A stretch of 22,262 nt of DNA. It comes from a virus (Duplodnaviria > Heunggongvirae > Uroviricota > Caudoviricetes). The stretch's first letter is position 1. Each line of letters opens with the position of its first letter. Positions 1 through 22,262 of the stretch are shown in pieces. Under the pieces are notes generated by a model. That model ran no database searches. It had not been told where the DNA came from and saw only the letters and a list, made by a program, of their open reading frames with translations. The translations under genes were made by a program, and so were the position numbers. The stretch is taken from the IMG/VR virus record IMGVR_UViG_2913147268_000007; one strand, given 5' to 3'.

Positions 1-1293
<1,293 letters not shown>

Positions 1294-1448: not shown

Positions 1449-1470
1449 GGTGTCCTCATGAGTGAGGGAA

Positions 1471-2191: not shown

Positions 2192-2231
2192 AGCGACCTC
2201 CCTTAACGTGGTGCTGCCTATTCTAAGTTGC

Positions 2232-3341: not shown

Positions 3342-3498
3342 CTGCTCCCTCCCTGTGCGGCATGGTCGCATGTGCGTGCGGAGGGGGTTACTGCTTTTTG
3401 TTGTCGCCGTGGCGGGAGAACGGCGCAGGGGTGAGATTACGCGCGTGGTGGGTGATGATTGTTGCCGAATCATTTAACGGATACAAGGGGCTGAAGCT

Positions 3499-4683
3499 AT
3501 GAGTGAAACTCGTTTTCATGGTGCCCGTGTCACGGAAAGTACCGACCTGGTAACAGCGATTAATGATGTTGATTCCAGCGTTATCGGTATCGTGGCAACG
3601 GCGGATGATGCGGATGCGGAGCTGTTCCCGCTGAACAAGCCCACACTGCTGACCCGCGTCAATGACGTGCTGGGAAAATGCGGGACTACGGGGACGCTTT
3701 ATCGTGCGCTTAAGGCTATCGCAGACCAGGTGAGCACAAAAGTGATCGTCGTTCGCGTGGCTGAACACAAAGAAGAAGGCGGTAGGACGCAGGATCAACT
3801 GGTTATCGGTGGTTCTGAATCTGACGGCAGCTATACGGGGATGTATGCGCTGCTTGTTGCAGAGCAGGATGAAAGCATCGGATACCGTCCGCGTATTCTG
3901 GCCGCGCCGGAGCTGGACACGGAGGCGGTGACAAAATCCCTGTGCGTGATTGCGGGTAAACTGCGCGCGTTTGTGTATGCCACATGTCATGGTTGTAACA
4001 CGATGGCTGAGGCGATTACCTACCGCCAGAAATTCAACGAACGTGAGGTGATGCTCTTATGGCCTGACTTCATCGCCTACAACCCGAAAAGTGGCAAAAA
4101 CGAAACGTTCCCCGCGCCTGCTTATGCGTGCGGCCTTCGTGCGTACATTGACCATGAGCAGGGCTGGCACAAATCGCTGTCCAACGTTCCGGTTAAAAAT
4201 GTGCTGGGGATGTCGAGGCATGTGTTCTGGTCGTTACAGGCCGAAGACAGTGATGCCAACAGCCTCAACAACAAAGAAATCACGACCATTATTCGTCGTA
4301 ACGGGTTCCGCTTCTGGGGCAACCGCACACCGGAAACGAACGCCTACATCTTTGAGGTGTATACCCGAACCGCACAGGTGCTGGCTGATTCAATTGCGGA
4401 AGCGCAGTTTGAAACCATCGACAGTCCACTGACGCCTGCGAACGTGAAGGATGTTATCAGTGCCATCAGGGCAAAATTGGATTCGCTGGTTACTGCCGGG
4501 AAACTGATTGGCGCGGAGTGCTGGTATGACGTGGTGGATAACGGCACCACGGATTTACGTCAGGGGCGTGTGCGTATTCGCTACAAATATACGCCCGTTC
4601 CCCCGCTGGAAGACATGGAGCTTTACCAGACGTTTACTGATGAATTCTTTGGTCCCGCATTTGCGGTGCTGGGAGGTGCCTGA
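3499..4683 (+). CDS. FI: Contractile tail sheath protein (P2 FI-like), 394 aa
   Basis: Conserved sheath blocks shared with P2 FI: ADDADAE.FPLNKP, KLRAF.Y, WPDF, IDHEQGWHKSLSNV, IRRNGFRFWGNRT, YTPVPPLE. RBS aagggg upstream. Confidence 0.93.
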   Translation: MSETRFHGARVTESTDLVTAINDVDSSVIGIVATADDADAELFPLNKPTLLTRVNDVLGKCGTTGTLYRALKAIADQVSTKVIVVRVAEHKEEGGRTQDQLVIGGSESDGSYTGMYALLVAEQDESIGYRPRILAAPELDTEAVTKSLCVIAGKLRAFVYATCHGCNTMAEAITYRQKFNEREVMLLWPDFIAYNPKSGKNETFPAPAYACGLRAYIDHEQGWHKSLSNVPVKNVLGMSRHVFWSLQAEDSDANSLNNKEITTIIRRNGFRFWGNRTPETNAYIFEVYTRTAQVLADSIAEAQFETIDSPLTPANVKDVISAIRAKLDSLVTAGKLIGAECWYDVVDNGTTDLRQGRVRIRYKYTPVPPLEDMELYQTFTDEFFGPAFAVLGGA

Positions 4684-5195
4684 TGGCTGTACCAAAACAT
4701 CTTCGCTTTTTTACGTTGTTTGTGGATGGTGAAAACGAAGTGGGTAAAGTGACATCCGTCACGCCGCCCAAACTGACGCGCAAAACCGACAGCTATCGTG
4801 GTGGTGGCATGATGGGAGCAGTAAGTATTGATCTCGGTCTGGACGACTCCGCGCTTGATGCGAGCTTTGTCATGGGGGGAGCTGTTCGTGCACTGTTCCT
4901 TAAGTATGGCGGCACGATTGACGGCACGCTGCTGCGTTTTGCGGGTGAATATTACACCGATGCAGAAAGCGATCTGTATGAAATCGAGATGCGCGGGCGT
5001 GTGACGGAAATTGATATGGGGGAGGCCAAACAGGGCGAAGCCACATCACACACTTACGCTGTCAAAAACACCTACTACAAGCTGAGCGTTAACGATCGCC
5101 CGCTGTGGGAAATCGACCTGTTGAACCACATCTACCGGAAGGACGGCAAGGACATTGTGCCTGACCGCATTCGTTCCGCGCTTGGGCTTGGCTGA
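4683..5195 (+). CDS. FII: Tail tube protein (P2 FII-like), 170 aa
   Basis: ATG overlaps the sheath stop (TGATG). PKLTRK, YRGGGM, LGLDD, RFAG.Y and MRGR motifs are typical of FII tube proteins. Confidence 0.9.
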   Translation: MAVPKHLRFFTLFVDGENEVGKVTSVTPPKLTRKTDSYRGGGMMGAVSIDLGLDDSALDASFVMGGAVRALFLKYGGTIDGTLLRFAGEYYTDAESDLYEIEMRGRVTEIDMGEAKQGEATSHTYAVKNTYYKLSVNDRPLWEIDLLNHIYRKDGKDIVPDRIRSALGLG

Positions 5196-5250
5196 TAAGT
5201 AATATGCAGGCGGCGCAGTGCGTCGCCTCTGACTGAAAAGGAGACAACTG

Positions 5251-5625
5251 ATGAAAGATATCGATACTGAAACCCGGAATAACACCGTAGCGGATGATGT
5301 GACGTCAGGTGAGGATATGGCTGTCGAACGTGGTGTAAAACTTTCCCGGCCAATTGAGCGTGGTGCCGAAAAAATCACATATGTGGAGATCACCGGGGCT
5401 ATTGAGCAGGCGGGATCCCTGCGTGGTCTGTCGCTGTCTGATGTGCTGAATCTGAAAGCGGATACCATGTTCACGCTGTTGCCTCGCGTGACCTCGCCAC
5501 GACTGGATGAAGTGATGATTAAAAAAATGTCGTCACGCGATTTTATTCAGTTGTGCGCTGTGGCTGTAAATTTTATGAGCGAGCCAGACTCTGGCGCGAA
5601 GAGCGTGCAGGAGACGGCAGCGTAA
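5251..5625 (+). CDS. E: Tail assembly chaperone E (zero-frame product)
   Basis: 124-aa ORF in the position between tube and tape measure that gpE occupies in P2 and lambda G occupies in lambda; acidic N-terminus. Confidence 0.8.
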   Translation: MKDIDTETRNNTVADDVTSGEDMAVERGVKLSRPIERGAEKITYVEITGAIEQAGSLRGLSLSDVLNLKADTMFTLLPRVTSPRLDEVMIKKMSSRDFIQLCAVAVNFMSEPDSGAKSVQETAA

Positions 5626-5789
5626 TCACCCTGGTGTGCTTTGAGCACATCGAAGATCTGGTGGCGGATATTGCCGCCATTTTCAACTGGTCGCCCGCCG
5701 AAATCTTCATGATGACGCCCGGCGAAGTGGTTAGCTGGCGTGAGCGGGCGGCACTTCGCAGCGGGAATGCAGATAATGAAGACTCTTGA
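5251..5789 (+). CDS. E': E+E' fusion chaperone made by programmed -1 ribosomal frameshift
   Basis: The -1 frame is open from 5523 to 5789 and overlaps the tape-measure start. A canonical X_XXY_YYZ heptamer A_AAT_TTT lies at 5568-5574 with the zero-frame codons AAT (Asn) and TTT (Phe). The predicted product is about 179 aa. Confidence 0.6.
5568..5574 (+). promoter_or_regulatory. Candidate -1 frameshift slippery heptamer A_AAT_TTT
   Basis: Fits X_XXY_YYZ in the E reading frame. An alternative slip site is the A7 run at 5521-5527, but a -1 frame stop (TAA 5520-5522) makes tandem slippage there less canonical. Confidence 0.5.
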
Positions 5790-8583
5790 CATCCGGGTCG
5801 CTTTCAGCGCCGTTGACAGGCTGACCCGGCCTGCCGAAAACGCCCGCCGCCTGATGGGGCAGTTTGGTGACTCCATTCAGCGAACGCAGGGGGCGATCAA
5901 AAATCTCGAGCGTCAGGCGCGTTCATTTGAGCGCGCCCGCGACGCTGTCAGTAAAGCGGATGCGGGTATCGTGAAAGCACGACGCCAGCTTAACGCCCTT
6001 AATCAGTTACAACGCACGGGTACAGTGCTCAGCGAAAAACAACAAAAGCTGATGCAGCAGTTAAGCACCCGGCTTGAACGCCTGAATGAATCGCGCACAC
6101 GGGAAATTCAGAAAATGCGGGAGCTTGGCGGAGAACTGAAACGCCACGGCATTTCCCTGACAGGCAGCGATAACACCATCCAGCAGGCCATCAGACGCAC
6201 CGAACAATACAACAACCAGCTTGAACGCGAACGGCAGGCGCTTGCGCGTGTAACGCAGGCTCGTGAGCGGTATTCGCGCGCGCAGGAAACCGCGGGAAAA
6301 CTGAAAACAGGTGGTGCGCTGGCAATTGGTGCGGCAGCGGCGGGCGGCTATGCTGCCGGGCGTTTTTTGCAGCCCGCGATCGGGTTCGGCAAAGAGATGT
6401 CCCGCGTTCAGGCGCTGACGCGAATCGACAAAAACAGCCCGCAGTTTAAGGCGCTGCGTGAGCAGGCGTTAAAACTTGGCTCTGAAACACAGTTTACTGC
6501 GAGTGATGCCGCCAGTGGGCAGAGCTTTCTGGCAATGGCTGGTTTTACTCCGCAGGCCATTCAGGCCGCATTGCCCGGTGTTCTTAATATGGCGCTGGCA
6601 GGTGGCGTCGAACTCGGCGAGACGGCTGATATAGGCTCCAATATCCTCACACAGTTCAACCTGACAGCCGATCAAATGGACCGGGTTGGCGATACGCTGA
6701 CAGCGGCATTCACCCGGACCAATACTGATTTACGCGCGCTGGGCGAAACCATGAAGTATACCGGTCCGGTTGCCGCAAAACTTGGTATCAGTCTTGAAGA
6801 AGCGGCAGCCATGGCCGGGATGCTTGCCAATAATGGTCTTCGTGGAAGCGATGCTGGTACGGCCATGCGCGCAAGTCTGTCCCGCCTTGCATCACCGCCA
6901 AAAGCTGCGGCTGATGCGCTGAAAGAGCTGGGGGTGTCAGTTGCTGACGCCAGAGGCAAAATGCGCCCGATGGAGGATGTGCTGCTTGATCTCTATAAGG
7001 CGACACAAAAATACGGACAGGTGGACCAGGTTTCCTTCTTCAAGGACATCGCCGGAGAAGAGGCGTTCGTTGGTTTGCAGACGCTTGTTGCGGCGGCTGG
7101 TTCAGGAGAGCTGCAAAAACTGACCAGAGAATTGCAGGGGGCAAGGGGAGAGGCCGATCGCGTTGCAAAAGTAATGGCCGATAATCTTGATGGGGACCTG
7201 AAAAATCTCGACAGCGCATGGGAAGGTCTTCGTATTCGCATCAGTGATCTGGTTGACGGTCCGCTGCGTTCTGTCACGCAGTGGCTCACGCGGGTGCTTG
7301 AAAAAATCACCTCGCTGGCGCAGGCCCATCCGGTACTGACGCGCCAGCTACTGATAGCAGGCGGTGCGTTGCTGGCAATGACTGCAACGGTTGGCTCGTT
7401 GTCGCTGGCTATTGGTGTGCTTGCTGGCCCGCTGGCAAAACTGCGTCTTGGCTTTTCCCTCCTGACCGGTTCAATGAATGCTGTCAGACTCCTGCCAGCA
7501 CTATGGGGAATGGTGACGGGTTCCGTTTCGTTACTGGGGGGCGCTATCGGGGCGTTGTTCAGTCCGGTCGGCCTTATCGTGGCTGCGCTTGCCGGAGCTG
7601 CCGTTCTCATCTGGAAATACTGGGATCCCATCAGGGCATTTTTTGCCGGGGTGTTCAGCGGGATTATGGAAAGGCTGACCCCGTTGCGCGAAACCTTTGA
7701 ACGGTTTGGTCCTGTTTTTGACGCAATCGGGAGTGGGATCAGCCAGGTGTTTAACTGGTTTAAATCGCTGCTGTCTCCGATGGAGTCCAGCAAGGAAACT
7801 CTGGATAAATGTACCAGTGCTGGCGAGATATTCGGTAACGTTCTTGGCGGTGCGTTACAACTTGTTCTGACACCTGCAAAAATGTTGCTGGATACGCTGG
7901 CGTGGATACTTGAAAAGCTTGGTGTGCTTCCGGATGAAGCGGAAAGGGCGCGCAAGAAAATCGAAGACGCACAGCGTGCGGCCATTCTTCAGGACAAGGT
8001 TGCCTTGCTTCAGGGGGACCTGGCGAAAATCAATCCGCCGAAGCCTGTGGAAAATGGCAATGGCACCGGAGGTGATAACCCCAAAGACAATAAACCGCTC
8101 ACAGACAGCAATACCGGTACGCTGCGCAGACTCAGCAAAATTGCTGATAACACAGGTAAGCTGGTTGAGGAGACGAAAAAACGCATTGGCCCCGGCGATA
8201 TTGTCTTTAAAAACCTGCCCCGAGCACTTGCTGTTCGTGGGGAGTGGCAGGAGCGGAAGATTGCGCAGGTCAGTAAGCCTGCCCCCGCAATTAATATCAC
8301 ACCCGTGGTCCCGGCTCCGCTGCCTCCGGCGCTGGTCCCTGTTGTTGCGGCCAGCTCCCGCCCGGTGGCGGAGGCTATACGATCTCCAGTGGCATCAGTT
8401 CCTGTAACTTCCCGTAACCGGGAGCCTGTTGCCTCCGGATTTGGTGGTGAAATTCATGTTCATCTGCATAACGTTGTTACGCAGAATCCCCGCGAACTGG
8501 CGAAACTGGTCGGTGAAATGGTCAGGGCAGAAATGGAACGGCGCGCCCGTGCCGGGCGTGGCAGTTTTTACGATAAAGATTGA
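5767..8583 (+). CDS. T: Tail tape measure protein (P2 gpT-like)
   Basis: An ORF of about 940 aa following E/E', with a coiled-coil-rich N-terminus, Gly/Ala-rich hydrophobic segments in the middle and a C-terminal region. The start is uncertain among GTG 5740, ATG 5767 and ATG 5776. Confidence 0.9.
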   Translation: MQIMKTLDIRVAFSAVDRLTRPAENARRLMGQFGDSIQRTQGAIKNLERQARSFERARDAVSKADAGIVKARRQLNALNQLQRTGTVLSEKQQKLMQQLSTRLERLNESRTREIQKMRELGGELKRHGISLTGSDNTIQQAIRRTEQYNNQLERERQALARVTQARERYSRAQETAGKLKTGGALAIGAAAAGGYAAGRFLQPAIGFGKEMSRVQALTRIDKNSPQFKALREQALKLGSETQFTASDAASGQSFLAMAGFTPQAIQAALPGVLNMALAGGVELGETADIGSNILTQFNLTADQMDRVGDTLTAAFTRTNTDLRALGETMKYTGPVAAKLGISLEEAAAMAGMLANNGLRGSDAGTAMRASLSRLASPPKAAADALKELGVSVADARGKMRPMEDVLLDLYKATQKYGQVDQVSFFKDIAGEEAFVGLQTLVAAAGSGELQKLTRELQGARGEADRVAKVMADNLDGDLKNLDSAWEGLRIRISDLVDGPLRSVTQWLTRVLEKITSLAQAHPVLTRQLLIAGGALLAMTATVGSLSLAIGVLAGPLAKLRLGFSLLTGSMNAVRLLPALWGMVTGSVSLLGGAIGALFSPVGLIVAALAGAAVLIWKYWDPIRAFFAGVFSGIMERLTPLRETFERFGPVFDAIGSGISQVFNWFKSLLSPMESSKETLDKCTSAGEIFGNVLGGALQLVLTPAKMLLDTLAWILEKLGVLPDEAERARKKIEDAQRAAILQDKVALLQGDLAKINPPKPVENGNGTGGDNPKDNKPLTDSNTGTLRRLSKIADNTGKLVEETKKRIGPGDIVFKNLPRALAVRGEWQERKIAQVSKPAPAINITPVVPAPLPPALVPVVAASSRPVAEAIRSPVASVPVTSRNREPVASGFGGEIHVHLHNVVTQNPRELAKLVGEMVRAEMERRARAGRGSFYDKD

Positions 8584-8589
8584 GGAGTC

Positions 8590-9084
8590 ATGGCCATGAT
8601 GATGATCTACGGCATGTTTGTTTTTGAGCTGCGCACGCTGCCGCATCAGCAGTTACAGCAAAACAAAAGCTGGCGGCATGTGAAAAATGAACGCGTTAAC
8701 CGTTCAGCAAGCTGGCAGTATATCGGTGCAGGTGATGATCGCATCGTTCTTTCTGGTGTGCTTTATCCTGAAATTACAGGTGGCGAAGTGTCGCTGTCGC
8801 TGCTGACCACGCAGGCGTATACAGGACGACCCTGGCCTTTGATTGATGGCGTCGGGCAGATTTACGGCATGTATGTCCTGACTGAAACGAATACGACCCG
8901 CTCCGAGTTTGATCGCTACGGTAAGGCGAAAAAGATAGAATTTTCACTGACTCTTGAACGCTGTGATGAGGATTTGCGGGAGCGCCTGCAATCCTCATCG
9001 TTCAGTGATATGCTGTCCGGCTTCAAAGATAAGGTGACATCATCTCTTAACAGCGCGGCCAGTTCAGTTAAAGGGCTGTTCTGA
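8590..9084 (+). CDS. U: Tail protein U (P2 gpU-like), 164 aa
   Basis: GMFVFELRTLPHQQLQ...SWRHV.N.RVNRS...LSGVLYPEITGG closely parallels P2 gpU. RBS gaggag upstream. Confidence 0.88.
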   Translation: MAMMMIYGMFVFELRTLPHQQLQQNKSWRHVKNERVNRSASWQYIGAGDDRIVLSGVLYPEITGGEVSLSLLTTQAYTGRPWPLIDGVGQIYGMYVLTETNTTRSEFDRYGKAKKIEFSLTLERCDEDLRERLQSSSFSDMLSGFKDKVTSSLNSAASSVKGLF

Positions 9085-9094: not shown

Positions 9095-9122
9095 AAACCG
9101 CTAATGGTCAGATTAGCGGTTT
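9095..9122. terminator. Bidirectional hairpin between convergent U and invertase genes
   Basis: Perfect 11-bp inverted repeat aaaccgctaat / attagcggttt with a 6-nt loop, followed by tcattttcc. The invertase stop codon (complement of 9113-9115) lies inside the hairpin. Confidence 0.55.
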
Positions 9123-9712
9123 TCATTTTCCTGAGTCTGCCCGGTTGTTTCTTCAGTCTGTATATCGCCTACAGGGTGATAACGATAAATCGTCGATGTG
9201 CCAATGCCGTAAATTATTGCCAGTTGTTTTCTGTCGTGCCCGTTTTTGATTAGCCTTGCTATTTGCTCATGCTGTTCTTTTGTCAGCTTCGGTCGACGTC
9301 CGCCTGTGCGCCCCCTTGCGCGCGCTGCCGCCAGCCCGGCCAGTGTACGTTCAACAATTAATTCACGTTCCATTTCAGCCAGGGCACCCATCACGTGGAA
9401 GAAAAAACGCCCCATTGGAGAAGATGTGTCTATGCTGTCGGTCAGACTGCGAAAATTAATCCCTCGCTCCCGTAGTTCCCCGACGAGAGAAATCAGATGT
9501 TTCATGCTTCGCCCGAGGCGATCCAGTTTCCAGACAACCAGCGTGTCACCTTTTTGAAGGCGCTTTAAAGCGCGTTTTAATCCCGGTCGGTCTGTCTTTG
9601 TCCCGCTTAATTTATCTTCAAATATTTGTTCACATCCTGCACAAACAAGAGCGTTTCGTTGCAGGTCTGTATTCTGGTCATTTGTTGATACCCTTACATA
9701 GCCAATCAGCAC
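9113..9712 (-). CDS. Serine recombinase, DNA invertase of the Hin/Gin/Cin/Pin family
   Basis: N-terminus (V)LIGYVRVSTNDQNTDLQRNAL carries the catalytic serine; C-terminal HTH GRRPKLTKEQHEQIARLIKNGHDRKQLAIIYGIGTSTIYRY matches the Hin DNA-binding domain. The likely start is GTG at complement 9710-9712, with GGGAGA upstream; the track ORF begins at TTG 9730. Confidence 0.92.
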   Translation of the reverse strand: MLIGYVRVSTNDQNTDLQRNALVCAGCEQIFEDKLSGTKTDRPGLKRALKRLQKGDTLVVWKLDRLGRSMKHLISLVGELRERGINFRSLTDSIDTSSPMGRFFFHVMGALAEMERELIVERTLAGLAAARARGRTGGRRPKLTKEQHEQIARLIKNGHDRKQLAIIYGIGTSTIYRYHPVGDIQTEETTGQTQENENR

Positions 9713-9766
9713 ACTGAATCTCCCGTCCAAAAGCGCAAATCATGCCATGCAGGCCAGAAACGGCCA

Positions 9767-9792
9767 TTATTTAAAACCTCGGTTTACGAGAA
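9767..9792. promoter_or_regulatory. gix/hix-like invertase crossover site
   Basis: ttatttaaaacc tc ggtttacgagaa is an imperfect 12-2-12 dyad around the AAACC..GGTTT core typical of hix/gix/cix sites. It lies about 55 bp from the invertase start. Confidence 0.7.
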
Positions 9793-10410: not shown

Positions 10411-10420
10411 NNNNNNNNNN
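10411..10420. other. Assembly gap (10 N)
   Basis: Literal run of n. Confidence 1.
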
Positions 10421-13970: not shown

Positions 13971-15970
13971 ATGAGTACCACAACACGTAAATTTAAAACC
14001 GTTATCACCGATACGGGTGCCAAAAAATTAGCTCAGGCAGCCGCGCCAGATGGTAAGCCTGTCCGCCTGACTCATATGGCCGTGGGCGACGGTGGCGGCA
14101 CGTTGCCCACACCAGACAGTAAGCAGACCCGTCTGGTGCATGAGGTGTGGCGACATACTGTTAATCGCGTCATCCTGGACGCAACACATCAGAACCGCAT
14201 TATTGCGGAGCTGGTTATTCCTCCTGAAACGGGCGGATTCTGGATCCGGGAAATTGGTGTATTTGATGAGCACGGCGATTTAATCGCGGTGGGCAATACT
14301 GCCGAAAGTTACAAGCCAGCCGTTGCCGAAGGGTCCGGTCGTGCACAAACATTTCGCACCATTCTGACCGTATCCAGCACTGCCACCGTGGTGCTTACCG
14401 TGGATAACACCATGGTGATGGCCACAGTGGATTACGTGGATGACAAACTGAAAGAGCATGAACAGTCACGACGTCACCCGGACGCCTCGCTGACCGCAAA
14501 AGGCTTTGTTCAACTCAGTAGCGCCACTAACAGCGTGTCTGAAACGCAGGCTGCAACGCCGAAAGCAGTAAAGGCCGCGTATGACCTTGCTAACGGTAAA
14601 TATACTGCGCAGGATGCCAGCACGACGCGAAAAGGCCTTGTCCAGCTCAGTAGCGCCACCAACAGCACGTCTGAAACGCAGGCTGCAACGCCGAAAGCAG
14701 TAAAGGCCGCGTATGACCTTGCTAACGCAAAATATACCGCTCAGGACGCCACGACGGCACAAAAAGGGATAGTCCAGCTCAGTAGTGCCACCAACAGCAC
14801 GTCTGAAACACTGGCCGCGACATCGAAAGCTGTTAAGGCGGTAATGGATGAAACGAACAAGAAAGCGCCCTTAAATAGTCCTGCACTGACCGGAACGCCA
14901 ACAANNNNNNNNNNNNNNNNNNNNNNNNNNNNNNNNNNNNNNNNNNNNNNNNNNNNNNNNNNNNNNNNNTCGTTATGGCTGCGATTGCCGCCCTTGTAGA
15001 TTCGTCACCTGATGCACTGAACACGCTGAACGAGCTGGCTGCGGCGCTGGGCAACGACCCGAATTTTGCGACCACCATGACTAACGCGCTTGCGGGTAAG
15101 CAACCGAAAGATGCCACCCTGACGGCGCTGGCCGGACTTACTACTGCGGCAGGCAAGTTTCCGTATTTTACGGGGAATGATGTCGCCAGCCTGGCAACCC
15201 TGACAAAAGTCGGGCGGGATATTCTTGCGAAATCGACCGTTGCTGCCGTTATCGAATACCTCGGTTTACGAGAACTCGGCACAAGCGGGGAGAAAATACC
15301 GTTACTCAGTACAGCGAATACCTGGACCAATCGACAAACATTCAGCGGTGGCCTTTCTGGGGAACTGTCCGGCAATGCCGCTACTGCAACAAAGCTGAAA
15401 ACAGCACGAAAAATTGCTGGAGTTGGTTTTGATGGTTCTAGCGATATTTCAATTAGTGCCAAAAATGTCAATGCATTTGCACTCCGACAAACAGGTAATA
15501 CTGTTAATGGTGATACATCCGTTGGATGGAATTGGGATAGTGGTGCATATAACGCCATGATTGGTGGTGCATCTGCATTAATTCTTCACTTTAATATAAA
15601 TGCTGGTAGCTGTCCTGCCGTACAATTCCGTGTGAATTATAAAAATGGTGGCATTTCCTACAGGTCGGCTCGTGATGGTTATGGGTTTGAATTAGGTTGG
15701 TCAGATTTCTATACCACGACACGAAAACCTTCAGCGGGAGATGTTGGTGCATATACGCGGACAGAATGTAACTCAAGGTTTATTACAGGTATTCGCCTTG
15801 GCGGTCTGTCATCTGTTCAGACATGGAATGGTCCCGGCTGGTCTGACAGGTCAGGTTATGTCGTTACGGGTTCAGTTAACGGAAACCGTGATGAATTAAT
15901 TGATACAACACAGGCAAGGCCAATTCAGTATTGCATTAATGGGACGTGGTATAACGCGGGGAGTATTTAA
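13971..15970 (+). CDS. H: Tail fibre protein (gpH-like), interrupted by a 65-N gap at 14905-14969
   Basis: The N-terminal domain, the stretch ...PALTGTPT [gap] ...YVMAAIAALVDSSPDALNTLNELAAALGNDP..., and the EYLGL junction all parallel P2 gpH. The C-terminus ends with the conserved ..INGTWYNAGSI tip motif. The reading frame across the gap cannot be verified. Confidence 0.85.
14499..14870 (+). repeat. Three tandem 132-nt (44-aa) repeats in the tail fibre shaft
   Basis: Repeated unit KG(F/L/I)VQLSSATNS.SET.AAT.KAVKA.... The repeats also create the spurious antisense ORF 14466..14762. Confidence 0.8.
14905..14969. other. Assembly gap (65 N) inside the tail fibre gene
   Basis: Literal run of n. 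Confidence 1.
15250..15275. promoter_or_regulatory. In-frame gix-like crossover site inside the tail fibre gene
   Basis: ttatcgaatacc tc ggtttacgagaa; its right half is identical to the site at 9767-9792. It encodes IEYLGLRE at the constant/variable boundary. Confidence 0.65.
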
Positions 15971-16939: not shown

Positions 16940-16949
16940 NNNNNNNNNN
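16940..16949. other. Assembly gap (10 N)
   Basis: Literal run of n. Confidence 1.
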
Positions 16950-17240
16950 TACGTCCATGTTATGCGCTTTGTTCCCGGAAGCATTCAAAGTAATAAGACC
17001 ATAAATATTACGGGGCGTGTTAATCCCTCGGATTACGGTAACTTTGATTCCCGTTATGTGAAAGATGTTCGACTTGGTTCNNNNNNNNNNAACGTCCATG
17101 TTATGCGCTTTGTCTCCGGAAGCATTCAAAGTAATAAAACCATAAATATTACAGGGCGTGTTAACCCCTCGGATTACGGTAACTTTGATTCCCGTTATGT
17201 GAAAGATGTTCGACTTGGTTCACAGCAATATTATGGAGTG
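16950..17240 (+). repeat. Two near-identical 141-bp copies separated only by a 10-N gap
   Basis: 16950-17090 and 17101-17240 differ at about 5 positions and end at the same point, so this is probably an alternate-allele or collapsed-repeat contig. Confidence 0.8.
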
Positions 17241-17405
17241 AACAACTGGCAAACATGGAATTTCCAGTGCCCTTCAGGTCATGTATTGTCTGGTATTAAT
17301 GTTCAGGATACAGGGTCTAACTCTGCCGATAATATAGCGGGCGTTTATTACAGACCCGTTCAAAAGTATATAAATGGCACCTGGTATAATGTAGCGAGCG
17401 TTTAA
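16950..17405 (+). CDS. Tail fibre C-terminal variable cassette, 5' partial; contains a 10-N gap
   Basis: Encodes ...[35 protein letters not shown]...[17 protein letters not shown] with the conserved fibre-tip ending. There is no start, constant region or crossover site on this block. Confidence 0.75.
17091..17100. other. Assembly gap (10 N)
   Basis: Literal run of n. Confidence 1.
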
Positions 17406-17406
17406 T

Positions 17407-17940
17407 ATGATGCACTTAAAGAACATAAAAGCGGGTAATGCTAAAACACTGGAACAGTATGAGTTAACAAAGAAACACGGAGTTATCTGGCTTTACTCTG
17501 AGGACGGAAAAAACTGGTATGAGGAAGTGAAAAACTTTCAGCCAGACACCATAAAGATTGTTTACGATGAAAATAATATTATTGTTGCCATAACCAAAGA
17601 TGCCTCCACACTTAACCCTGAAGGTTATAGCGTCGTTGAGATTCCTGATATTACCGCCAACCGGCGTGCTGACGACTCAGGTAAATGGATGTTTAAAGAT
17701 GGCGCAGTCATTAAACGTGTATATACCGAAGAAGAGTTGCGCCTACAGACGGAAAACCAGAAAAAAATATTATTACAGCAGGCCAGAGAAAAAACGCAGT
17801 TCTGGCAAACACAGCTTACTTTGGGGATTATCACTGATTCAGACAGACAGCAACTGATGAACTGGATGCGATACGTGCAACAGGTTGAGACAACTGATAC
17901 CTCGGTTCTTCCTGTAACATTCCCGGAACCACCAGAATAA
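17407..17940 (+). CDS. Tail fibre assembly chaperone, 177 aa
   Basis: [30 protein letters not shown]...; starts 1 nt after the upstream fibre cassette stop. Confidence 0.9.
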
Positions 17941-17943
17941 GAA

Positions 17944-17970
17944 AAGGCCCGTACGGGCCTTAATTTGTTG
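17944..17970. terminator. Bidirectional hairpin terminator between convergent tfa genes
   Basis: Stem aggcccg / cgggcct with loop tac, then taatttgttgtt. Confidence 0.6.
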
Positions 17971-18498
17971 TTATTCTGGTTTCTGTGGCCATTCAGGCTT
18001 TGCAGTATCCACACGGCTGACCATAACGCTGTAGCGTTCCCATGATTCCAGTCGTGTGCGTTCCTCATCAGTTGCCATATTCAGTCTGACAGCACGTTCC
18101 AGCGGTTGAATCACAGACTCCGCTTCGGAAAGCAAAGCGGCTTTTTGTAACTCTGCCTGCTGTTGCAGTTCCTGTTTTGTATATTCCCGCTTTACTACTT
18201 TACCATCCAGAAACTTCCAGTTTCCCGAGATATCGGCGCGACGGTTGGCTGTTATATTCGGTAACTCAACAACACTTAACCCGTCAGGGTTAAGTGTTGA
18301 TACGTCTTTCTCAATACAACGAATAATCCCCTTCTGGTCATAAGCTATTTTTAAAGTATCATCCTGAAAGTTTTTTAATTCGTCATACCAGTTTTTACCG
18401 TCTTCTGTATATAGCCAGATAACGCCAGCTTTTTTCGTAAGCTGATACTGCTCAATGGTTTTGGGGTTTCCGGCGGTAATATTTTTCAGATGTTGCAT
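17971..18498 (-). CDS. Tail fibre assembly chaperone, 175 aa
   Basis: [23 protein letters not shown]...[11 protein letters not shown] caGGAGaatat is upstream of the ATG (complement of 18496-18498). Cognate to the minus-strand fibre cassette upstream of it. Confidence 0.9.
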
Positions 18499-18513
18499 AT
18501 ATTCTCCTGATGG

Positions 18514-19888
18514 CTATGCCTGTTCAACGTTATACCAGTTACCAGAAATGTATTTTTGTAGTGGTCGTGACACCATCCAGTCATCTCCATCAACCTCACC
18601 AATAATTTGCAATCCTGTTGTCACATGACCATTACCTGGTTCGCAAAGTCCTCCGCGATATAATGTGTCAGAACGTCTGCCTCCCAGACGCACATTTCTG
18701 ATAAAAGAACTATTCAGGTAATCATTTAAGTTTGACCCCCAGCACCCACCAAATATATTTCCATCGGTGTTATAACGGACGCCACCCGCAATAAGAGCAC
18801 CCGGTGAAATAAAGGATTTATCGTTCGGGTTAAACTGCCATAAAGCATCATTACCGCCATCGCCACGCATATGAATACATGGAACCGGAAATCCATACTG
18901 TTCTGTCAGTAAATACCCAAAGCTGACCGCGCCGGGATAGCCCTGTCCATTGCGAATGGACAAGCCCTTAACTATCGGCACGTAAAGACCACCAGGAGTG
19001 GGATTCCAGGCAAACTGCGTCTGAACAAAAGGCGCGGTGGCATTATTCAACTGGTCTGCAAATGCGCCACTTCCATCAGGAATTATTCCCTGATGAATAT
19101 ATGCAACCCGCTTATAAAAATCAGCAGATGCGGGTTGAAGCCCAAATGCCAGTTGTCCATTTGAATAGAATAAAAGGACACCGTCGCCGCCCTGTTTAAT
19201 ACCAGTGTCGTTATCTCCGAGAGTAATGGAATTACCGCCCAGTGCGTTATCTGTACCAAGCGCCAGCCCACCATCAATTTTGGCCCCGTGGCTGACAGAT
19301 ATAGCACCTGTTCTCAGATTTATAGCGAATGGCCTTAATGGGCCGATATCACCGTTTTCGCCTTGTCCTTCAGCCGTCGGAATGAAATGAAGAAAATCTT
19401 CTGAACGACGGAAAATAAGACCGAAGGCATCATTGAAAATTCGCAGCGCATTCACCGTGCCAATTTTCAGTTCTCCGGTCATTTTATCGCCGGAACGCTG
19501 AACGGCGTTACCAGCCTTGTTTACCGTTTCCTGTAAACCGAGGTATTCGATAACGGCGGCAACGGTCGATTTCGCAAGAATATCCCGCCCAACTTTTGTC
19601 AGGGTTGCCAGACTGGCAACATCATTCCCCGTAAAATACGGAAACCTGTCTGCCGCAGTAGCAAGCCCGGCCAGCGCCGTCAGGGTGGCATCTTTCGGTT
19701 GCTTACCCGCAAGCGCGCTAGTCATGGTGGTCGCAAAATTCGGGTCGTTGCCCAACGCCGCAGCCAGCTCGTTCAGCGTATTCAGTGCGTCAGGCGACGA
19801 GTCCACGAGGGCAGCGATCGCAGCCATAACATAAGCCGTGCTTGCGATTTGGGTATTATTCGTTCCCTGTCGCGCAGTTGGTGTTGTT
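18514..19888 (-). CDS. Tail fibre gene in reverse orientation (constant-region copy plus distinct C-terminal cassette), 5' partial at N-run
   Basis: Encodes ...TTPTARQGTNNTQIASTAYVMAAIAALVDSS...AVIEYLGL followed by a unique 340-aa C-terminus ending ..ISGNWYNVEQA*. The constant part is about 94% identical at DNA level to 14970-15275. Confidence 0.8.
19528..19553. promoter_or_regulatory. gix-like crossover site, inverted relative to 15250-15275
   Basis: ttcctgtaaacc ga ggtattcgataa is a near-perfect match to the gix-type 26-bp dyad pattern and lies in-frame at the EYLGL junction of the minus-strand fibre. Confidence 0.65.
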
Positions 19889-19898
19889 NNNNNNNNNN
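19889..19898. other. Assembly gap (10 N)
   Basis: Literal run of n. Confidence 1.
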
Positions 19899-19917
19899 TT
19901 TGGACGGGAGATTCAGC

Positions 19918-20100
19918 GTGCTGATTGGCTATGTAAGGGTATCAACAAATGACCAGAATACAGATCTGCAACGAAACGCTCTTGTTTGTGCAGGATATGA
20001 ACAAATATTTGAAGATAAATTAAGCGGAACAAGGACAGGCCGACCTGGATTAAAACGTGCTTTAAAGCGCCTTCAAAAAGGTGACGCACTGGTTGTCTGA
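19918..20100 (+). pseudogene. Truncated second copy of the invertase gene (N-terminal 60 codons)
   Basis: GTG-LIGYVRVSTNDQNTDLQRNALVCAGYEQIFEDKLSGTRTGRPGLKRALKRLQKGDALVV then TGA. About 94% identical to the 5' end of the invertase at 9113..9712 and diverges or stops where the full copy continues WKLDRLGRS. Confidence 0.8.
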
Positions 20101-20159
20101 AAACTGGACTGACTGGTTCACTGTATGCGGCATCTTGTCGTGCTGGTGGTGGAAGCCTA

Positions 20160-20245
20160 GAAAAAGTATCGGGTGTTACTGAACCGTGTTGATACATCAA
20201 CTGCACCTGATATTGAGTGGCCTACGAACCCTGTCAGGGAGTAAT
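20160..20245 (+). pseudogene. Degenerate 3' remnant of a tail-fibre-assembly gene
   Basis: About 90% identical to the 3' end of the tfa fragment at 21207-21293 (..[18 protein letters not shown]) but frameshifted. Confidence 0.6.
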
Positions 20246-20297
20246 CATTGGGATTATGCCGCAGCACGTCTTAAGCAAGAACGTGCTGCGGTTGGAT
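20165..20297 (+). repeat. Direct repeat copy 1 (tfa 3' end plus hairpin)
   Basis: About 135 bp, roughly 90% identical to 21207-21345. Includes the hairpin ccgcagcacgt...acgtgctgcgg. Confidence 0.7.
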
Positions 20298-20298
20298 G

Positions 20299-20955
20299 CT
20301 ATTTTTTCCCTGAAGCGGAAAACATTACTACAGTACCTTGAACCTTGGTTTTAACATTCTCGAAATGCTCTGAGAGTATATGTGTTAAGCCTTCTTCGGA
20401 ATCTTTTGTGTTTGAAAAGATGCCTTTCTGATTGTAAATGCGCATCAGTTTTTGACCGAAGCTATTGTGCACAACTCCATCGCCAAGAATTGTGGCTCCG
20501 TATAGAGTTCCATCGTCAGTTAAGGCCTGCGCCGCATTGCGTATTACACAGCTTTTTGTAGATATATTTCCAGGCAGGCAGTGAAGAAGGTAAAACATGG
20601 AAATGGAATCAAATTGACCATGTAACGCCGCGGGATAAGGTTCAAAAACATCATGGCTAATTTTATGTTTAATTTTTGATTCCCCAGCCCTTGTAGATGC
20701 CGCGTTCAGGCTAGCTTCGTTCAAATCCATTAAAGATATCAGACTACTCTCAGGTACGTGAGTAAGGTAAAACCCAGTTCCAACGCCAATATCCAGATGG
20801 TTGTTACCTAAATGTTCCAGAAAGTGTGGAAGAAGGTGTTCCTTTGTAGGACATCCCCATGCAAGCCGATTTGATACTCCCAAAACCCACCAGTCATAAA
20901 GCTTTAGGGTAAGTGGTGTGTAAATTTTAGCCCCATCATCTGTGTTTTTTTTCAT
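20299..20955 (-). CDS. Class I SAM-dependent methyltransferase, about 218 aa
   Basis: Glycine-rich SAM-binding motif I LDIGVGTGFYL and downstream Rossmann-fold blocks. No DPPY/NPPF-type DNA methyltransferase motif. The start is probably the ATG at complement 20953-20955 (GGTGA upstream) rather than the track start at 20967. Visibly AT-rich compared with the flanking phage genes. Confidence 0.75.
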   Translation of the reverse strand: MKKNTDDGAKIYTPLTLKLYDWWVLGVSNRLAWGCPTKEHLLPHFLEHLGNNHLDIGVGTGFYLTHVPESSLISLMDLNEASLNAASTRAGESKIKHKISHDVFEPYPAALHGQFDSISMFYLLHCLPGNISTKSCVIRNAAQALTDDGTLYGATILGDGVVHNSFGQKLMRIYNQKGIFSNTKDSEEGLTHILSEHFENVKTKVQGTVVMFSASGKK

Positions 20956-21023
20956 TGATTTCACCATGTTATAGTTTTATTTGTGAATTAAATCAATTAT
21001 GGCGATGAATTACAAGGGGTTAA

Positions 21024-21293
21024 ATGCTGCCGCAGCATAGCGATATTGAAATAGCCTGGTATGCTTCGATACAGCAGGAGCCGAATGGCTGGAAGACCGT
21101 CACCACACAGTTCTACATCCAGGAATTCAGTGAGTATATTGCGCCACTGCAGGATGCTGTAGATCTGGAAATCGCAACGGAGGAAGAAAGATCGTTGCTG
21201 GAGGCATGGAATAAATATCGGGTATTGTTGAATCGTGTTGATACATCAACTGCACCTGATATTGAGTGGCCTGCAAATCCTGTCAGGGAGTAA
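21024..21293 (+). CDS. C-terminal fragment of a tail fibre assembly protein, 89 aa, possibly a pseudogene
   Basis: ...[31 protein letters not shown], the conserved Tfa C-terminus. It lacks the N-terminal MxHLKNI...PDITANRR half. Confidence 0.6.
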
Positions 21294-21345
21294 TCATTGG
21301 GATTATGCCGCAGACACGTCGTATGCAGGAACGTGCTGCGGTTAG
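21207..21345 (+). repeat. Direct repeat copy 2 (tfa 3' end plus hairpin)
   Basis: Partner of 20165-20297. The hairpin ccgcagacacgtc...gaacgtgctgcgg follows the stop. Confidence 0.7.
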
Positions 21346-21407
21346 TTTGTGAGCTTTCGATAGTGGTTGTTATTTTTGCCCTTATTTGTTCCGGAGGCCA
21401 TGGTTCA

Positions 21408-21578
21408 ATGGTCCGTCTGCCCCCTGTGGTGATGTCAGCAAAATCAGCCACTGCGCGAACCACAATAGCCCGGGAAGATGCTGAAGATCACCAGGTAAAG
21501 CTGTCAGCGCAGAAACTGGAAGAACTGCTCGCATCAATGGTTAAGGATGAGGTTGATCGCAATGATGGGATTTATTGA
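21408..21578 (+). CDS. Hypothetical small protein, about 56 aa
   Basis: ATG at 21408 with GGAGG 10 nt upstream; MVRLPPVVMSAKSATARTTIAREDAEDHQVKLSAQKLEELLASMVKDEVDRNDGIY. No family recognised. Confidence 0.3.
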   Translation: MVRLPPVVMSAKSATARTTIAREDAEDHQVKLSAQKLEELLASMVKDEVDRNDGIY

Positions 21579-21673
21579 CGTCAGCGAGAGCAGAAGGAAG
21601 AACTGAATAACCTGAATGATTTACGCTCAATCAGAGCGATGGCGATTAGCGGCAATCACGCTCGATAAAATTA

Positions 21674-21699
21674 ACCCCGGTGATCATCCGGGGTTTTGC
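21674..21699. terminator. Bidirectional hairpin terminator
   Basis: ccccgg tgatcat ccgggg followed by ttttgc, placed between the small + ORF and the convergent Rha gene. Confidence 0.5.
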
Positions 21700-21704
21700 A
21701 TTCA

Positions 21705-22262
21705 TTAAAACCGCATCAACCTTTCCACCAATTGTTCTTTACGGGCAACGATCCACCCATGTTGCTCCAGATAAAATTTAAACCGTTCCAGCGTGCATAC
21801 CATCGCATCGGCGGGGACTTTTTCTGTGAACTCGACCTGACCGTGTTTATCGAAGTGGATCAGTAATGCGCATCCATTATTTGGGGCGGGGGAGTTTTGT
21901 GCTGCAGGAGGACGTTTGTGGAGTTCTTCTTCCATTGCGTTAAATTTTTCAATGTAAGCTTCTTTTAGTCTGGCTGCTTTTTTGCCAGTAAATCCCATTA
22001 CGAGGAACATGAAGCCGTCTTTTGTGATCAGGTAGCATCGTGATTCACGTTCTGCGCCGTTGCCAATTTCGACAGTCTGAACATCGGCCGAAAAGTTGGC
22101 TGATGTAAATTCGGGAGAGCAGTCGAGTGTGTCAATCTTAGCTAAAACGTGTTTATGTTGTTTATCGAAGTAGTCGGCAACAGCTTGAGAGGTGGTAACC
22201 AGGCGACCATCTTTGAAAAAGACTTTTGGTGACTCGTTAGAAAAAGTTATAGCTGTATTCAT
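21705..22262 (-). CDS. Rha-family phage regulatory protein (antirepressor-like)
   Basis: N-terminal region MNTAITFSNESPKVFFKDGRLVTTSQAVADYFDKQHKHVLAKIDTL...CYLITKDGFMFLVMGFTGKKAA...YIEKFNAMEE is the Rha-domain pattern. The ATG sits exactly at the window edge, so the true start cannot be confirmed. Confidence 0.75.
   Translation of the reverse strand: MNTAITFSNESPKVFFKDGRLVTTSQAVADYFDKQHKHVLAKIDTLDCSPEFTSANFSADVQTVEIGNGAERESRCYLITKDGFMFLVMGFTGKKAARLKEAYIEKFNAMEEELHKRPPAAQNSPAPNNGCALLIHFDKHGQVEFTEKVPADAMVCTLERFKFYLEQHGWIVARKEQLVERLMRF

What the first reader, a model, noticed from the sequence alone, without database searches (positions are those of the whole stretch)
20101..21350. AT-rich methyltransferase cargo gene bracketed by 135-bp direct repeats derived from tfa 3' ends
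The class I SAM methyltransferase gene (20299..20955, minus) is visibly more AT-rich than the surrounding phage genes. It is flanked by two direct copies (20165-20297 and 21207-21345) of the last 80 nt of a tail-fibre-assembly gene plus its terminator hairpin. This looks like a moron inserted by recombination at the fibre module end. It has motif I LDIGVGTGF but no DNA-methyltransferase catalytic motif, so its substrate is unknown; candidates include small-molecule, RNA or protein methylation.
Basis: partly seen in the sequence, partly recalled or inferred. Interest (0 to 1): 0.5.

Follow-up and report, generated by a model that had tools for sequence, protein, structure and literature searches.

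The report
Intact ybcY prophage methyltransferase cargo gene
This is the intact form of ybcY, a long-annotated methyltransferase gene of unknown substrate that lambda-like prophages carry just after their tail-fibre genes in about 70% of E. coli genomes; the repeats around it are the ends of two tail-fibre-chaperone genes, so the locus is ordinary.

Summary
A 218-aa class I SAM methyltransferase (20299-20955, minus) lies between two direct copies (20147-20293 and 21196-21343, about 89% identical) of a tail-fibre-assembly (tfa) 3' end plus hairpin.

It is not new. The 1.1-kb module is 97% identical to tfaD-ybcY-tfaX of the K-12 DLP12 prophage, where ybcY is a pseudogene. The gene occurs in 3832 of 5426 complete E. 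coli genomes and in plaque-forming lambdoid phages.

The repeats are not insertion scars:
- The left copy is the donor cassette's tfa end. A deletion cut it and fused it to a dead pin invertase.
- The right copy is tfaX joined to the resident prophage's own tfa end.
- A sister prophage at the same ompW site lacks the cassette, which supports gain or loss by homologous recombination within tfa.

The gene is only moderately AT-rich: 41% GC against 51% for the window, about the same as nearby tfa genes. It carries the sigma-70 promoter hexamers reported for the H-NS-bound K-12 spacer.

Profile and fold searches place it among small-molecule methyltransferases. It has no DNA-methyltransferase motifs and no specific family assignment, so the substrate remains unknown.

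The window is a scaffold of contigs joined by N runs, so the "neighbouring" P2-like genes may not be physically adjacent.

The parts
19918..20137 (+). Pseudogene of a Pin/Gin-type serine DNA invertase: the N-terminal ~60 codons, then in-frame stops at 20101 and 20113 and decay. It is fused to the tfa remnant at a GGAA microhomology near 20138.
   Evidence: RefSeq annotation of the identical ST131 sequence reads 'recombinase family protein, missing C-terminus'. Alignment with the window's intact invertase 9113-9730.
20138..20244 (+). Remnant of the last ~35 codons of a tail-fibre-assembly gene (DLP12 tfaD / PhiR26_1 type), with stop TAA at 20242-20244. This is the coding part of the left repeat copy (20147-20293).
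20258..20292 (.). Hairpin 'type A' (GCCGCAGCACGT...ACGTGCTGCGG). It lies 6 nt beyond the methyltransferase stop and 13 nt beyond the tfa stop, between the two convergent genes.
   Evidence: Folds at -28.6 kcal/mol, z = -4.0 on the plus strand and z = -4.5 on the minus strand. Present next to the methyltransferase stop in 80 of 80 IMG/VR loci. Identical in type to K-12 tfaD and PhiR26_1.
20299..20955 (-). ybcY: a 218-aa class I SAM-dependent methyltransferase (RefSeq WP_000240999.1 is called from ATG 20967, giving 222 aa).
20968..21023 (-). Promoter region of ybcY in the divergent ybcY-tfaX spacer. It holds TTGATT-17-TATAAC (20996-20968) and an overlapping TTAACC-16-CATAAT (21023-20996).
   Evidence: Exact hexamers found once in the window, with 0.01 expected by chance. 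The same hexamers are listed for the RpoD-holoenzyme-bound, H-NS-bound ybcY<>tfaX spacer of K-12 (PMC3946193). The second candidate comes from the consensus scan.
21024..21293 (+). 89-aa TfaX-like ORF, a hybrid. Its 5' part (to about 21248-21270) belongs to the ybcY cassette. Its 3' part is the resident prophage's tfa end.
   Evidence: phrog_2341, E = 4e-61. Pfam Caudo_TAP positions 75-130 of 131. Similarity to K-12, ev243 and PhiR26_1 stops at 21248-21270. From about 21265 it matches the tfa end of the cassette-free prophage of strain NMBU-W13E19.
21196..21343 (+). Right repeat copy: a tfa 3' end plus hairpin 'type B' (21307-21342).
   Evidence: The terminator-like site at 21324-21340 is followed by GTTAGTTTGT.
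21390..21668 (+). Fragment of a DUF4376 gene with an internal stop. It is part of the resident prophage's right arm.
   Evidence: RefSeq annotation of identical sequence. phrog_1141/7703 hits.
21705..22262 (-). Rha-family regulator. In complete genomes ash and the truncated ompW (the prophage end) follow just beyond the window.
   Evidence: Pfam Phage_pRha, E = 3e-27. Annotation.

Best explanation
The locus is the intact allele of ybcY, a cargo ('moron') gene of lambda-like prophages. It sits in the accessory region that follows the side-tail-fibre genes stf-tfa and lies close to the prophage end.

Enzyme. It encodes a cytoplasmic class I SAM-dependent methyltransferase of an uncharacterised subfamily. 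Its fold and profile neighbours are all small-molecule or lipid O-/N-/C-methyltransferases. I infer that it methylates a metabolite, lipid head group or xenobiotic of the lysogen, not DNA.

Expression. The gene is transcribed against the late operon from its own sigma-70 promoter in the AT-rich ybcY-tfaX spacer, which binds H-NS. The hairpin between the convergent tfa and ybcY ends would terminate or stabilise both transcripts.

Origin of the repeats. They are the conserved 3' ends of two tfa paralogues: the tfa upstream of the cassette and the short tfaX beyond it. That conserved stretch acts as a portable homology arm, so recombination within it moves the cassette between prophages and can delete it.

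History of this lineage, inferred from relatives:
1. The right crossover joined tfaX to the resident ompW-site prophage's tfa end.
2. A later deletion removed most of the left tfa and fused its last ~105 nt to a decayed pin invertase gene.

Shown: identity with ybcY, the architecture, the hybrid right copy, the cassette-free sister prophage, the promoter hexamers and the fold class. Inferred: promoter use in this strain, terminator function, the recombination route and the substrate class.
For: Identity with the known locus:
- Window 20147-21270 is 97% identical to K-12 DLP12 tfaD'-ybcY-tfaX.
- Phage PhiR26_1 annotates the protein as YbcY.

Distribution:
- The gene is in 3832 of 5426 complete E. 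coli genomes, at 99% identity or more in 3461 records.
- The module with both tfa flanks is at least 80% covered in 3423 genomes.
- It occurs in isolated lambdoid phages ev243, 2G7b, Kati, Turner and the PhiR series.

Presence/absence at one site (the ompW prophage):
- Strain NMBU-W13E19 has stf-tfa-DUF4376'-rha-ash-ompW', with no cassette.
- O104:H4 2011C-3493 has stf-tfa(full)-MT-tfa'-DUF4376' with the identical protein.
- ST131 and this window add the pin' fusion.

Mosaic repeats:
- The left copy and its hairpin match the K-12/PhiR26 type. The right copy from about 21265 matches the NMBU resident type.

Cargo hot spot:
- O157:H7 carries a catalase/yciEFG-like block between tfa and the methyltransferase.
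- A 56%-identical homologue in Providencia sits between antiterminator Q, an NleF-like gene and the holin.

Promoter:
-.

Fold and profile:
- AF2 pLDDT 90.
- Foldseek top hits are PE N-methyltransferase, juvenile-hormone acid methyltransferase (JHAMT), phosphoethanolamine methyltransferase and natural-product methyltransferases.
- A family profile against PDB finds ToxA, JHAMT, NodS, CysG/BelI, UbiG and PmtA.
- No DNA-methyltransferase motifs.

Likely functional:
- Motifs are invariant across 64 homologues down to 33% identity.
- The family has 197 clusters (at 50% identity) with E < 1e-30.
Against: - Chromosomal homologues have no conserved neighbour that would hint at a pathway. The recurring alpha/beta-hydrolase neighbours are unrelated to one another.
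- Promoter activity is known only from in-vitro RpoD binding in K-12. With TTGATT-17-TATAAC the transcript would be almost leaderless.
- The hairpins lack a canonical U tract on the ybcY strand, and the left one was not called a terminator by the scan.
- No literature reports a phenotype. A K-12 ybcY mutant was unremarkable in one assay, but that allele is a pseudogene anyway.
- The direction of events (gain versus loss of the cassette at the ompW prophage) is not resolved.
Confidence: 0.8

Rival explanations
1. The methyltransferase modifies nucleic acid, either DNA or phage/host RNA. It would serve as an anti-restriction or epigenetic function placed next to an invertase, like mom next to gin in phage Mu.
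For: - In this window the gene lies about 200 nt from a pin-type invertase remnant.
- The family's median pI is 8.8.
Against: - The adjacency to pin is secondary. In O104:H4, K-12, ev243 and PhiR26_1 an intact tfa and no invertase precedes the gene.
- There is no (D/N/S)PP(Y/F/W) or PCQ motif and no target-recognition or RNA-binding domain in 218 aa. The pI of this protein is 6.9.
- The best profile and fold matches are small-molecule enzymes.
- The only PADLOC hit is insignificant, E = 0.003.
- Homologues are stand-alone chromosomal genes without restriction partners.
Confidence: 0.08
2. The repeats mark a discrete mobile cassette. They would be target-site duplications or attachment sites made when the methyltransferase gene was inserted by a site-specific or transpositional mechanism.
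For: - Direct repeats bracket a single AT-richer gene.
- A hairpin lies at each repeat end.
- The core unit of hairpin, methyltransferase and tfaX 5' part recurs with different left flanks.
Against: - The repeats are protein-coding tfa ends of two different lineages, 89% identical, with different hairpin loops.
- With an intact left tfa the homology runs to 227 nt or more.
- K-12's own tfaX end is only 79% like the tfa end.
- No integrase or transposase lies within the unit.
- The left repeat boundary at 20147 is a deletion scar.
- Of 65 evaluable IMG/VR loci, 18 lack the tfa core on at least one side.
Confidence: 0.05
3. The gene is a decaying passenger with no current function, as in K-12 where ybcY is a pseudogene. 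Its conservation would reflect only the recent spread of lambdoid prophages.
For: - It is a pseudogene in K-12.
- The local context is heavily degraded: pin', tfa', tfaX hybrid, DUF4376' with an internal stop, and IS-disrupted lom in ST131.
- It is bound by the silencer H-NS in K-12.
- E. coli copies are 99% identical or more, so they say little about selection.
Against: - The ORF is intact here, and RefSeq annotates it as an ordinary protein-coding gene, not a pseudogene, in the non-K-12 genomes sampled.
- The family keeps invariant catalytic-site motifs down to 33% identity across Enterobacterales, Hahella and Acidobacteria.
- The gene has been captured independently at another moron site in Providencia prophages.
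- The structure prediction is confident.
Confidence: 0.07

Closest known systems
ybcY (b0562) with tfaD and tfaX in the cryptic lambdoid prophage DLP12 of E. coli K-12
   Same: - Same gene order and orientation: tfa(+) - ybcY(-) - tfaX(+).
- 97% nucleotide identity over 20147-21270.
- Same promoter hexamers.
- Same hairpin after tfa.

   Different: - The K-12 allele is a pseudogene; this one is intact.
- K-12 has a full tfaD and its own diverged tfaX end, followed by appY-ompT.
- Here the left tfa is cut to about 105 nt and fused to pin'. The tfaX end is replaced by the resident prophage's tfa end, followed by DUF4376'-rha-ash-ompW'.
The same cassette in plaque-forming lambdoid phages (ev243, 2G7b, PhiR26_1, Kati, Turner) and in the ompW prophage of O104:H4 2011C-3493
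   Same: - Protein 98.6-99.5% identical in the phages. The ompW prophage of O104:H4 encodes the identical protein, WP_000240999.1.
- Position after stf-tfa.
- Opposite strand to the late genes.
- Hairpin at the stop codon.

   Different: - Those genomes keep an intact tfa on the left.
- Downstream cargo differs: alpha/beta hydrolase, ompT and int. Kati has an intact invertase between tfa and the methyltransferase.
Lambda-type morons and lysogenic-conversion genes of the accessory region (lom, bor, ompT in DLP12-like phages)
   Same: - A single gene with its own promoter and a flanking hairpin.
- Compositionally AT-shifted.
- Present or absent among otherwise homologous prophages.
- Located at a known cargo hot spot.

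   Different: Known examples encode envelope proteins with defined phenotypes. This one is a cytoplasmic enzyme with no known phenotype.
Small-molecule class I methyltransferases: PmtA-type phosphatidylethanolamine N-methyltransferase (8ys9), JHAMT, PfPMT, ToxA, NodS, BelI/CysG, UbiG
   Same: - Rossmann-like 7-strand fold with N-terminal helical lid.
- Similar size, about 200-260 aa.
- Motif I and the acidic loop.

   Different: - Only 10-21% identity.
- No single family stands out.
- No curated family model reaches its cut-off; the best NCBIfam scores are 17 bits against cut-offs of 175-180.
- The family's own conserved motifs (YDWWVL, LLHCLPG, YNxKGIFxN) are not those of any characterised enzyme I could match.

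Membership tests
Class I (Rossmann-fold) SAM-dependent methyltransferases | Glycine-rich motif I (E/DxGxGxG) at the end of strand 1 | tested here: met
   HLDIGVGTG at residues 53-61 of the 218-aa protein. G57 and G61 are invariant and G59 nearly invariant in 64 homologues. Pfam Methyltransf_12, 37.6 bits against a cut-off of 30.
Class I (Rossmann-fold) SAM-dependent methyltransferases | Acidic residue at the end of strand 2 that binds the ribose, and a seven-stranded sheet with the last strand antiparallel | tested here: met
Class I (Rossmann-fold) SAM-dependent methyltransferases | Binds SAM and transfers a methyl group | not testable with these tools
   Needs purified protein.
YbcY / phrog_2132 family of lambdoid prophage methyltransferases | Full-length match to the family profile and orthology with K-12 ybcY | tested here: met
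   phrog_2132, E = 7.9e-157, positions 1-218 of 218. 97% nt identity and conserved synteny with K-12 tfaD-ybcY-tfaX.
DNA methyltransferases (N6-A/N4-C and C5) | Catalytic motif (D/N/S)PP(Y/F/W), or PCQ plus ENV, together with a target-recognition domain | tested here: not met
   Regex search finds no [DNS]PP[YFWH] and no PC[QK]. An isolated ENV tripeptide at 199-201 lies outside any C5 context. There are no DNA-methyltransferase Pfam or NCBIfam hits.
PmtA-type phospholipid N-methyltransferase | Significant, specific sequence or structure match that separates it from other class I methyltransferases | tested here: inconclusive
Phage moron (independent cargo transcription unit) | Own promoter and terminator, independent of the flanking phage operon | tested here: inconclusive
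   Promoter hexamers are identical to those reported for the RpoD-bound K-12 spacer. A stable hairpin lies at the stop codon in 80 of 80 loci. There is no transcript evidence for this strain and no canonical U tract on the gene's strand.
Phage moron (independent cargo transcription unit) | Present in some and absent from other, otherwise homologous prophages; base composition differs | tested here: met
   The ompW-site prophage occurs with the cassette and without it. GC is 41.2% against 51.1% for the window. The gene is also AT-shifted against its flanks in E. hormaechei and Providencia.
Tail fibre assembly protein (Pfam Caudo_TAP, PF02413), for the flanking repeats | Match to the family profile | tested here: met
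   The right ORF 21024-21293 matches profile positions 75-130 of 131, E = 6e-25. The left copy aligns to the last ~35 codons of K-12 tfaD and PhiR26_1 tfa. Both are partial genes.

The most novel reading that the evidence does not exclude
YbcY may be a real lysogenic-conversion enzyme. On this reading it is a prophage-spread small-molecule or lipid methyltransferase, independently captured at two different moron hot spots: after tfa in E. coli and between Q and the lysis genes in Providencia. It would alter a host metabolite or envelope lipid, or detoxify a xenobiotic, and so give lysogens a fitness or phage-resistance advantage. That would explain why about 70% of E. coli genomes keep an intact copy.
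Probability: 0.3. Interest if true: 0.5.

Novelty: already known. Interest (0 to 1): 0.2.

Why it matters
As a sequence feature it matters little. The gene, its neighbours and its promoter region are already annotated in K-12, and the same module is present in thousands of genomes.

Two modest points remain useful:
- The comparison of three versions of the same ompW-site prophage gives a clean example of how the conserved 3' end of tfa serves as a homology arm. That arm swaps or deletes cargo downstream of the fibre genes.
- ybcY is one of the most widespread intact prophage cargo enzymes of E. coli and has no known substrate or phenotype. It is a cheap and reasonable target for biochemical de-orphaning.

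Tried and rejected
- Gene-neighbourhood inference. Chromosomal homologues in Salmonella, Enterobacter, Yersinia, Erwinia and Hahella are stand-alone genes in unrelated contexts.
- A methyltransferase plus esterase gene pair. An alpha/beta hydrolase appeared near the methyltransferase in phages, Enterobacter and Erwinia, but these belong to different families with no similarity (E = 0.82).
- Domain fusions. Relatives fused to cytochrome P450 or RCC1 repeats exist. They point only to small-molecule chemistry in distant organisms.
- Names of distant clusters are all generic.
- Defence-system models. The only hit was an insignificant mad2 match.
- BFVD viral fold search found nothing closer than 16% identity.
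- The afdb50 fold library was not available.
- Literature. 12 papers hold the string 'ybcY' (several are unrelated, non-gene matches). None of those I opened reports a function. No paper links tfaX with a methyltransferase function, and no paper held all four moron/methyltransferase/tfa/prophage search terms.
- Exact empty site. A search for pin'-tfa end-DUF4376' found none. It did uncover the cassette-free sister prophage.
- I first read the window's mixture of P2-like and lambdoid sequence as a large chromosomal inversion. I rejected that after finding the five N runs and the duplicated contig ends.
Full report
**1. What is in the sequence**

The repeat finder and a pairwise alignment confirm two direct copies, 20147-20293 and 21196-21343. 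They are about 148 nt long and 89-90% identical, with one single-base indel.

Each copy consists of the end of a tail-fibre-assembly (tfa) reading frame followed by a G+C-rich hairpin. The left frame stops at TAA 20242-20244, and the right ORF 21024-21293 matches Pfam Caudo_TAP positions 75-130 of 131. The left hairpin (20258-20292) is very stable at -28.6 kcal/mol, z = -4.0. The right one (21307-21342) is weaker, z = -1.8.

Between the copies, on the minus strand, is an intact ORF. It is 222 aa from ATG 20967 or 218 aa from ATG 20955. The 218-aa form is the one supported by homologues and by the PHROG profile, which both begin at residue 5.

**2. Base composition**

The gene has GC 41.2% and GC3 36.1%, against 51.1% for the whole window and 53-60% for the contractile-tail genes. 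The tfa genes and fibre tips a few kb to the left are 41.2-43.8%. The sequences immediately flanking the gene are 47-49%.

So "AT-rich" is true against the genome but not against the fibre-chaperone genes.

The spacer upstream of the orthologous K-12 gene is one of the H-NS-bound, RpoD-holoenzyme-bound intergenic regions in genomic SELEX (PMC3946193).

**3. The window is a scaffold**

There are five N runs: 10411-10420, 14905-14969, 16940-16949, 17081-17090 and 19889-19898. Sequence on either side of most of them is not contiguous in complete genomes, and contig ends are duplicated: 16950-17080 resembles 17091-17221.

Mapping to the complete ST131 genome 4/1-1 gives three pieces:
- Positions 1 to about 17080 come from serS and the P2-like prophage next to it.
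- Positions 17091-19888 are the reverse complement of the tail-fibre region of a lambdoid prophage at ompW/trp.
- Positions 19899-22262 are the right arm of that lambdoid prophage.

In strain 4/1-1 the two prophages lie about 530 kb apart. The piece carrying the finding is thus its own contig, and the P2-like "neighbours" should not be used as its context.

**4. Identity of the locus**

The 1.1-kb stretch 20147-21270 is 97% identical to tfaD'-ybcY-tfaX of the cryptic prophage DLP12 in E. coli K-12 MG1655, where ybcY is annotated as a pseudogene. One phage record labels the protein YbcY.

How common it is:
- The gene occurs in 3832 of 5426 complete E. coli genomes, at 99% identity or more in 3461 records, with up to four copies per genome.
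- The module with both tfa flanks is at least 80% covered in 3423 genomes.
- The precise pin'-tfa'-MT arrangement of this window is in 821 genomes. The best-matching ones listed are mostly O25b:H4 / ST131.
- Isolated lambdoid phages (ev243, 2G7b, PhiR26_1, Kati, Turner and others) carry it, after stf-tfa and co-oriented with int, ompT and an alpha/beta hydrolase on the strand opposite to the late genes.
- In 80 IMG/VR prophage contigs it lies within about 0.3-4 kb of the contig end. The hairpin abuts its stop codon in all 80, and a tfa core is found on both sides in 47 of 65 evaluable loci.

**5. What the repeats are**

Three versions of the same ompW-site prophage tell the story:
- Strain NMBU-W13E19 has gpJ-lom-stf-tfa(full)-DUF4376'-rha-ash-ompW', with no methyltransferase.
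- O104:H4 2011C-3493 has stf-tfa(full)-MT-tfa'-DUF4376'-ompW', with the identical protein WP_000240999.1.
- ST131 and this window have, in place of the full tfa, an invertible fibre segment, a decayed pin invertase and only the last ~105 nt of tfa before the methyltransferase.

A five-way alignment shows that the left copy and its hairpin are of the K-12 tfaD / PhiR26_1 type. From about 21265 onward, the right copy is base-for-base the resident type seen in the cassette-free NMBU prophage, including a different hairpin loop and a bulged A.

Similarity to K-12, ev243 and PhiR26_1 ends at 21248-21270. That is therefore the right-hand crossover, inside the most conserved part of tfa.

With an intact left tfa the homology between the two copies would extend to at least 227 nt. 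The left boundary at 20147 is simply a deletion scar. Alignment with the window's intact invertase shows the pin' frame running, with two in-frame stops, to about 20137, where it meets tfa at a GGAA microhomology.

The repeats are therefore paralogous tfa ends of different ancestry, not duplications made by an insertion. They do provide the homology by which the cassette can be gained, exchanged or deleted. Which of the ompW prophage versions is ancestral is not resolved.

**6. Evidence that it is a cargo unit**

- The exact hexamers TTGATT-17-TATAAC, listed for ybcY in the K-12 SELEX study, occur once in the window at 20996-20968 on the minus strand, with 0.01 expected by chance.
- They abut ATG 20967. 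This again favours ATG 20955 as the start and implies a very short leader.
- An overlapping TTAACC-16-CATAAT (21023-20996) would give a 34-nt leader containing a GGTGA Shine-Dalgarno-like sequence.
- The region after tfa is a cargo hot spot. O157:H7 ATCC 43890 has a manganese-catalase/yciEFG-like block between tfa and the methyltransferase, and DLP12 has appY-ompT beyond tfaX.
- A 56%-identical homologue in Providencia alcalifaciens prophages sits at the other classical moron site, between antiterminator Q (next to an NleF-like gene) and the holin.
- Its GC is native-looking in Erwinia, Hahella, Salmonella and Yersinia chromosomes. It is AT-shifted by about 10 points in E. hormaechei, in the Providencia prophage and here.

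**7. What the enzyme is**

Sequence searches:
- Pfam gives only generic Methyltransf_12/23/25/11 matches.
- The best NCBIfam scores are 17 bits against cut-offs of 175-180.
- PHROGs places it in phrog_2132, "unknown function".
- The family is broad: 1322 representative clusters at E < 1e-3 and 197 at E < 1e-30.

Conserved features: its own motifs are YDWWVL, HLDxGxGTG, LLHCLPG and YNxKGIFxN. Y20, H53, D77, S117, H125, G153 and D185 are invariant down to 33% identity.

Structure: AlphaFold2 gives a confident model (pLDDT 90) of a seven-stranded Rossmann-like methyltransferase with an N-terminal helical lid.
- Foldseek against the PDB ranks a phosphatidylethanolamine N-methyltransferase first (E = 5.6e-12, TM 0.61-0.67). 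Juvenile-hormone acid methyltransferase (JHAMT), phosphoethanolamine methyltransferase and many natural-product methyltransferases follow.
- A family profile against PDB sequences finds ToxA, JHAMT, NodS, CysG/BelI, UbiG and PmtA at E from 4e-6 to 2e-4.

All are at 10-21% identity and none stands out. There are no DNA-methyltransferase motifs and no extra domain, and the pI is 6.9. The defence-system library gives nothing significant.

I conclude that it is a small-molecule-type methyltransferase with an undetermined substrate. Membership in any characterised family is not claimed.

**8. Attempts to get at the substrate that failed**

- Neighbourhoods of chromosomal homologues are unrelated to one another.
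- The recurring hydrolase neighbours are not homologous.
- Fusions to P450 or RCC1 in distant relatives are uninformative for E. coli.
- Source names are generic.
- Viral structure matches are remote.
- None of the ybcY papers I opened reports a function.

**9. Verdict**

But the object is the long-annotated ybcY module of lambdoid prophages, extremely common in E. coli. The repeats are paralogous gene ends, not insertion signatures, and the AT-richness is unremarkable for this part of a phage genome.

Novelty is nil at the level of the feature. The remaining interest is that a very widespread, apparently functional prophage enzyme still has no known substrate.

Noticed in passing
window 10411-10420, 14905-14969, 16940-16949, 17081-17090, 19889-19898: Five N runs. 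The flanking sequences map to non-adjacent places, and to two different prophages about 530 kb apart, in complete ST131 genomes. Contig ends are duplicated (16950-17080 resembles 17091-17221). The window is a concatenation of short-read contigs, so adjacency across the N runs is unreliable.
   Followed up: yes
window 9113-9730 (-), with sites at 9775-9787 (+), 15257-15269 (+) and 19533-19545 (-): An intact Pin/Gin-type serine invertase in the P2-like prophage next to serS. Three copies of a crossover-like core, (A/T)ACCTCGGTTTAC, are present: one upstream of the invertase and two inside tail-fibre genes. Several tfa genes lie in alternating orientation. This looks like an invertible host-range switch. 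The segment order differs from strain 4/1-1, though part of that difference may be scaffolding.
   Followed up: partly
window 19918-20137: A second invertase copy is a pseudogene. It is 95% identical to the intact one over its first ~210 nt. It then has in-frame stops at 20101 and 20113 and is fused to the tfa 3' end at a GGAA microhomology.
   Followed up: yes
window 1-9084: serS is followed by a P2-like prophage remnant: Hok/Gef, ogr, truncated gpD, then sheath, tube, E/E', tape measure and gpU. The tail genes lie before the baseplate genes, unlike the canonical P2 order. That is consistent with past inversions through the invertase sites.
   Followed up: partly
L019/L020 5001-5669 (Providencia alcalifaciens prophage): A 56%-identical YbcY homologue (GC 28.6%) sits between antiterminator Q plus an NleF-like caspase-inhibitor effector gene and the holin. 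This is the position occupied by Stx genes in Stx phages.
   Followed up: no
L022 1337-3550 (O157:H7 ATCC 43890 prophage): A manganese-catalase / ferritin-like x2 / general-stress-protein block (a paralogue of yciGFE-katN) is inserted between tfa and the methyltransferase cassette in an O157:H7 lambdoid prophage.
   Followed up: no
window 20186-20341 (+): RefSeq annotates a 45-aa 'hypothetical protein' (WP_001309429.1; 20217-20354 in window coordinates) that spans the hairpin and overlaps the methyltransferase 3' end on the opposite strand. It is most likely an annotation artefact.
   Followed up: no
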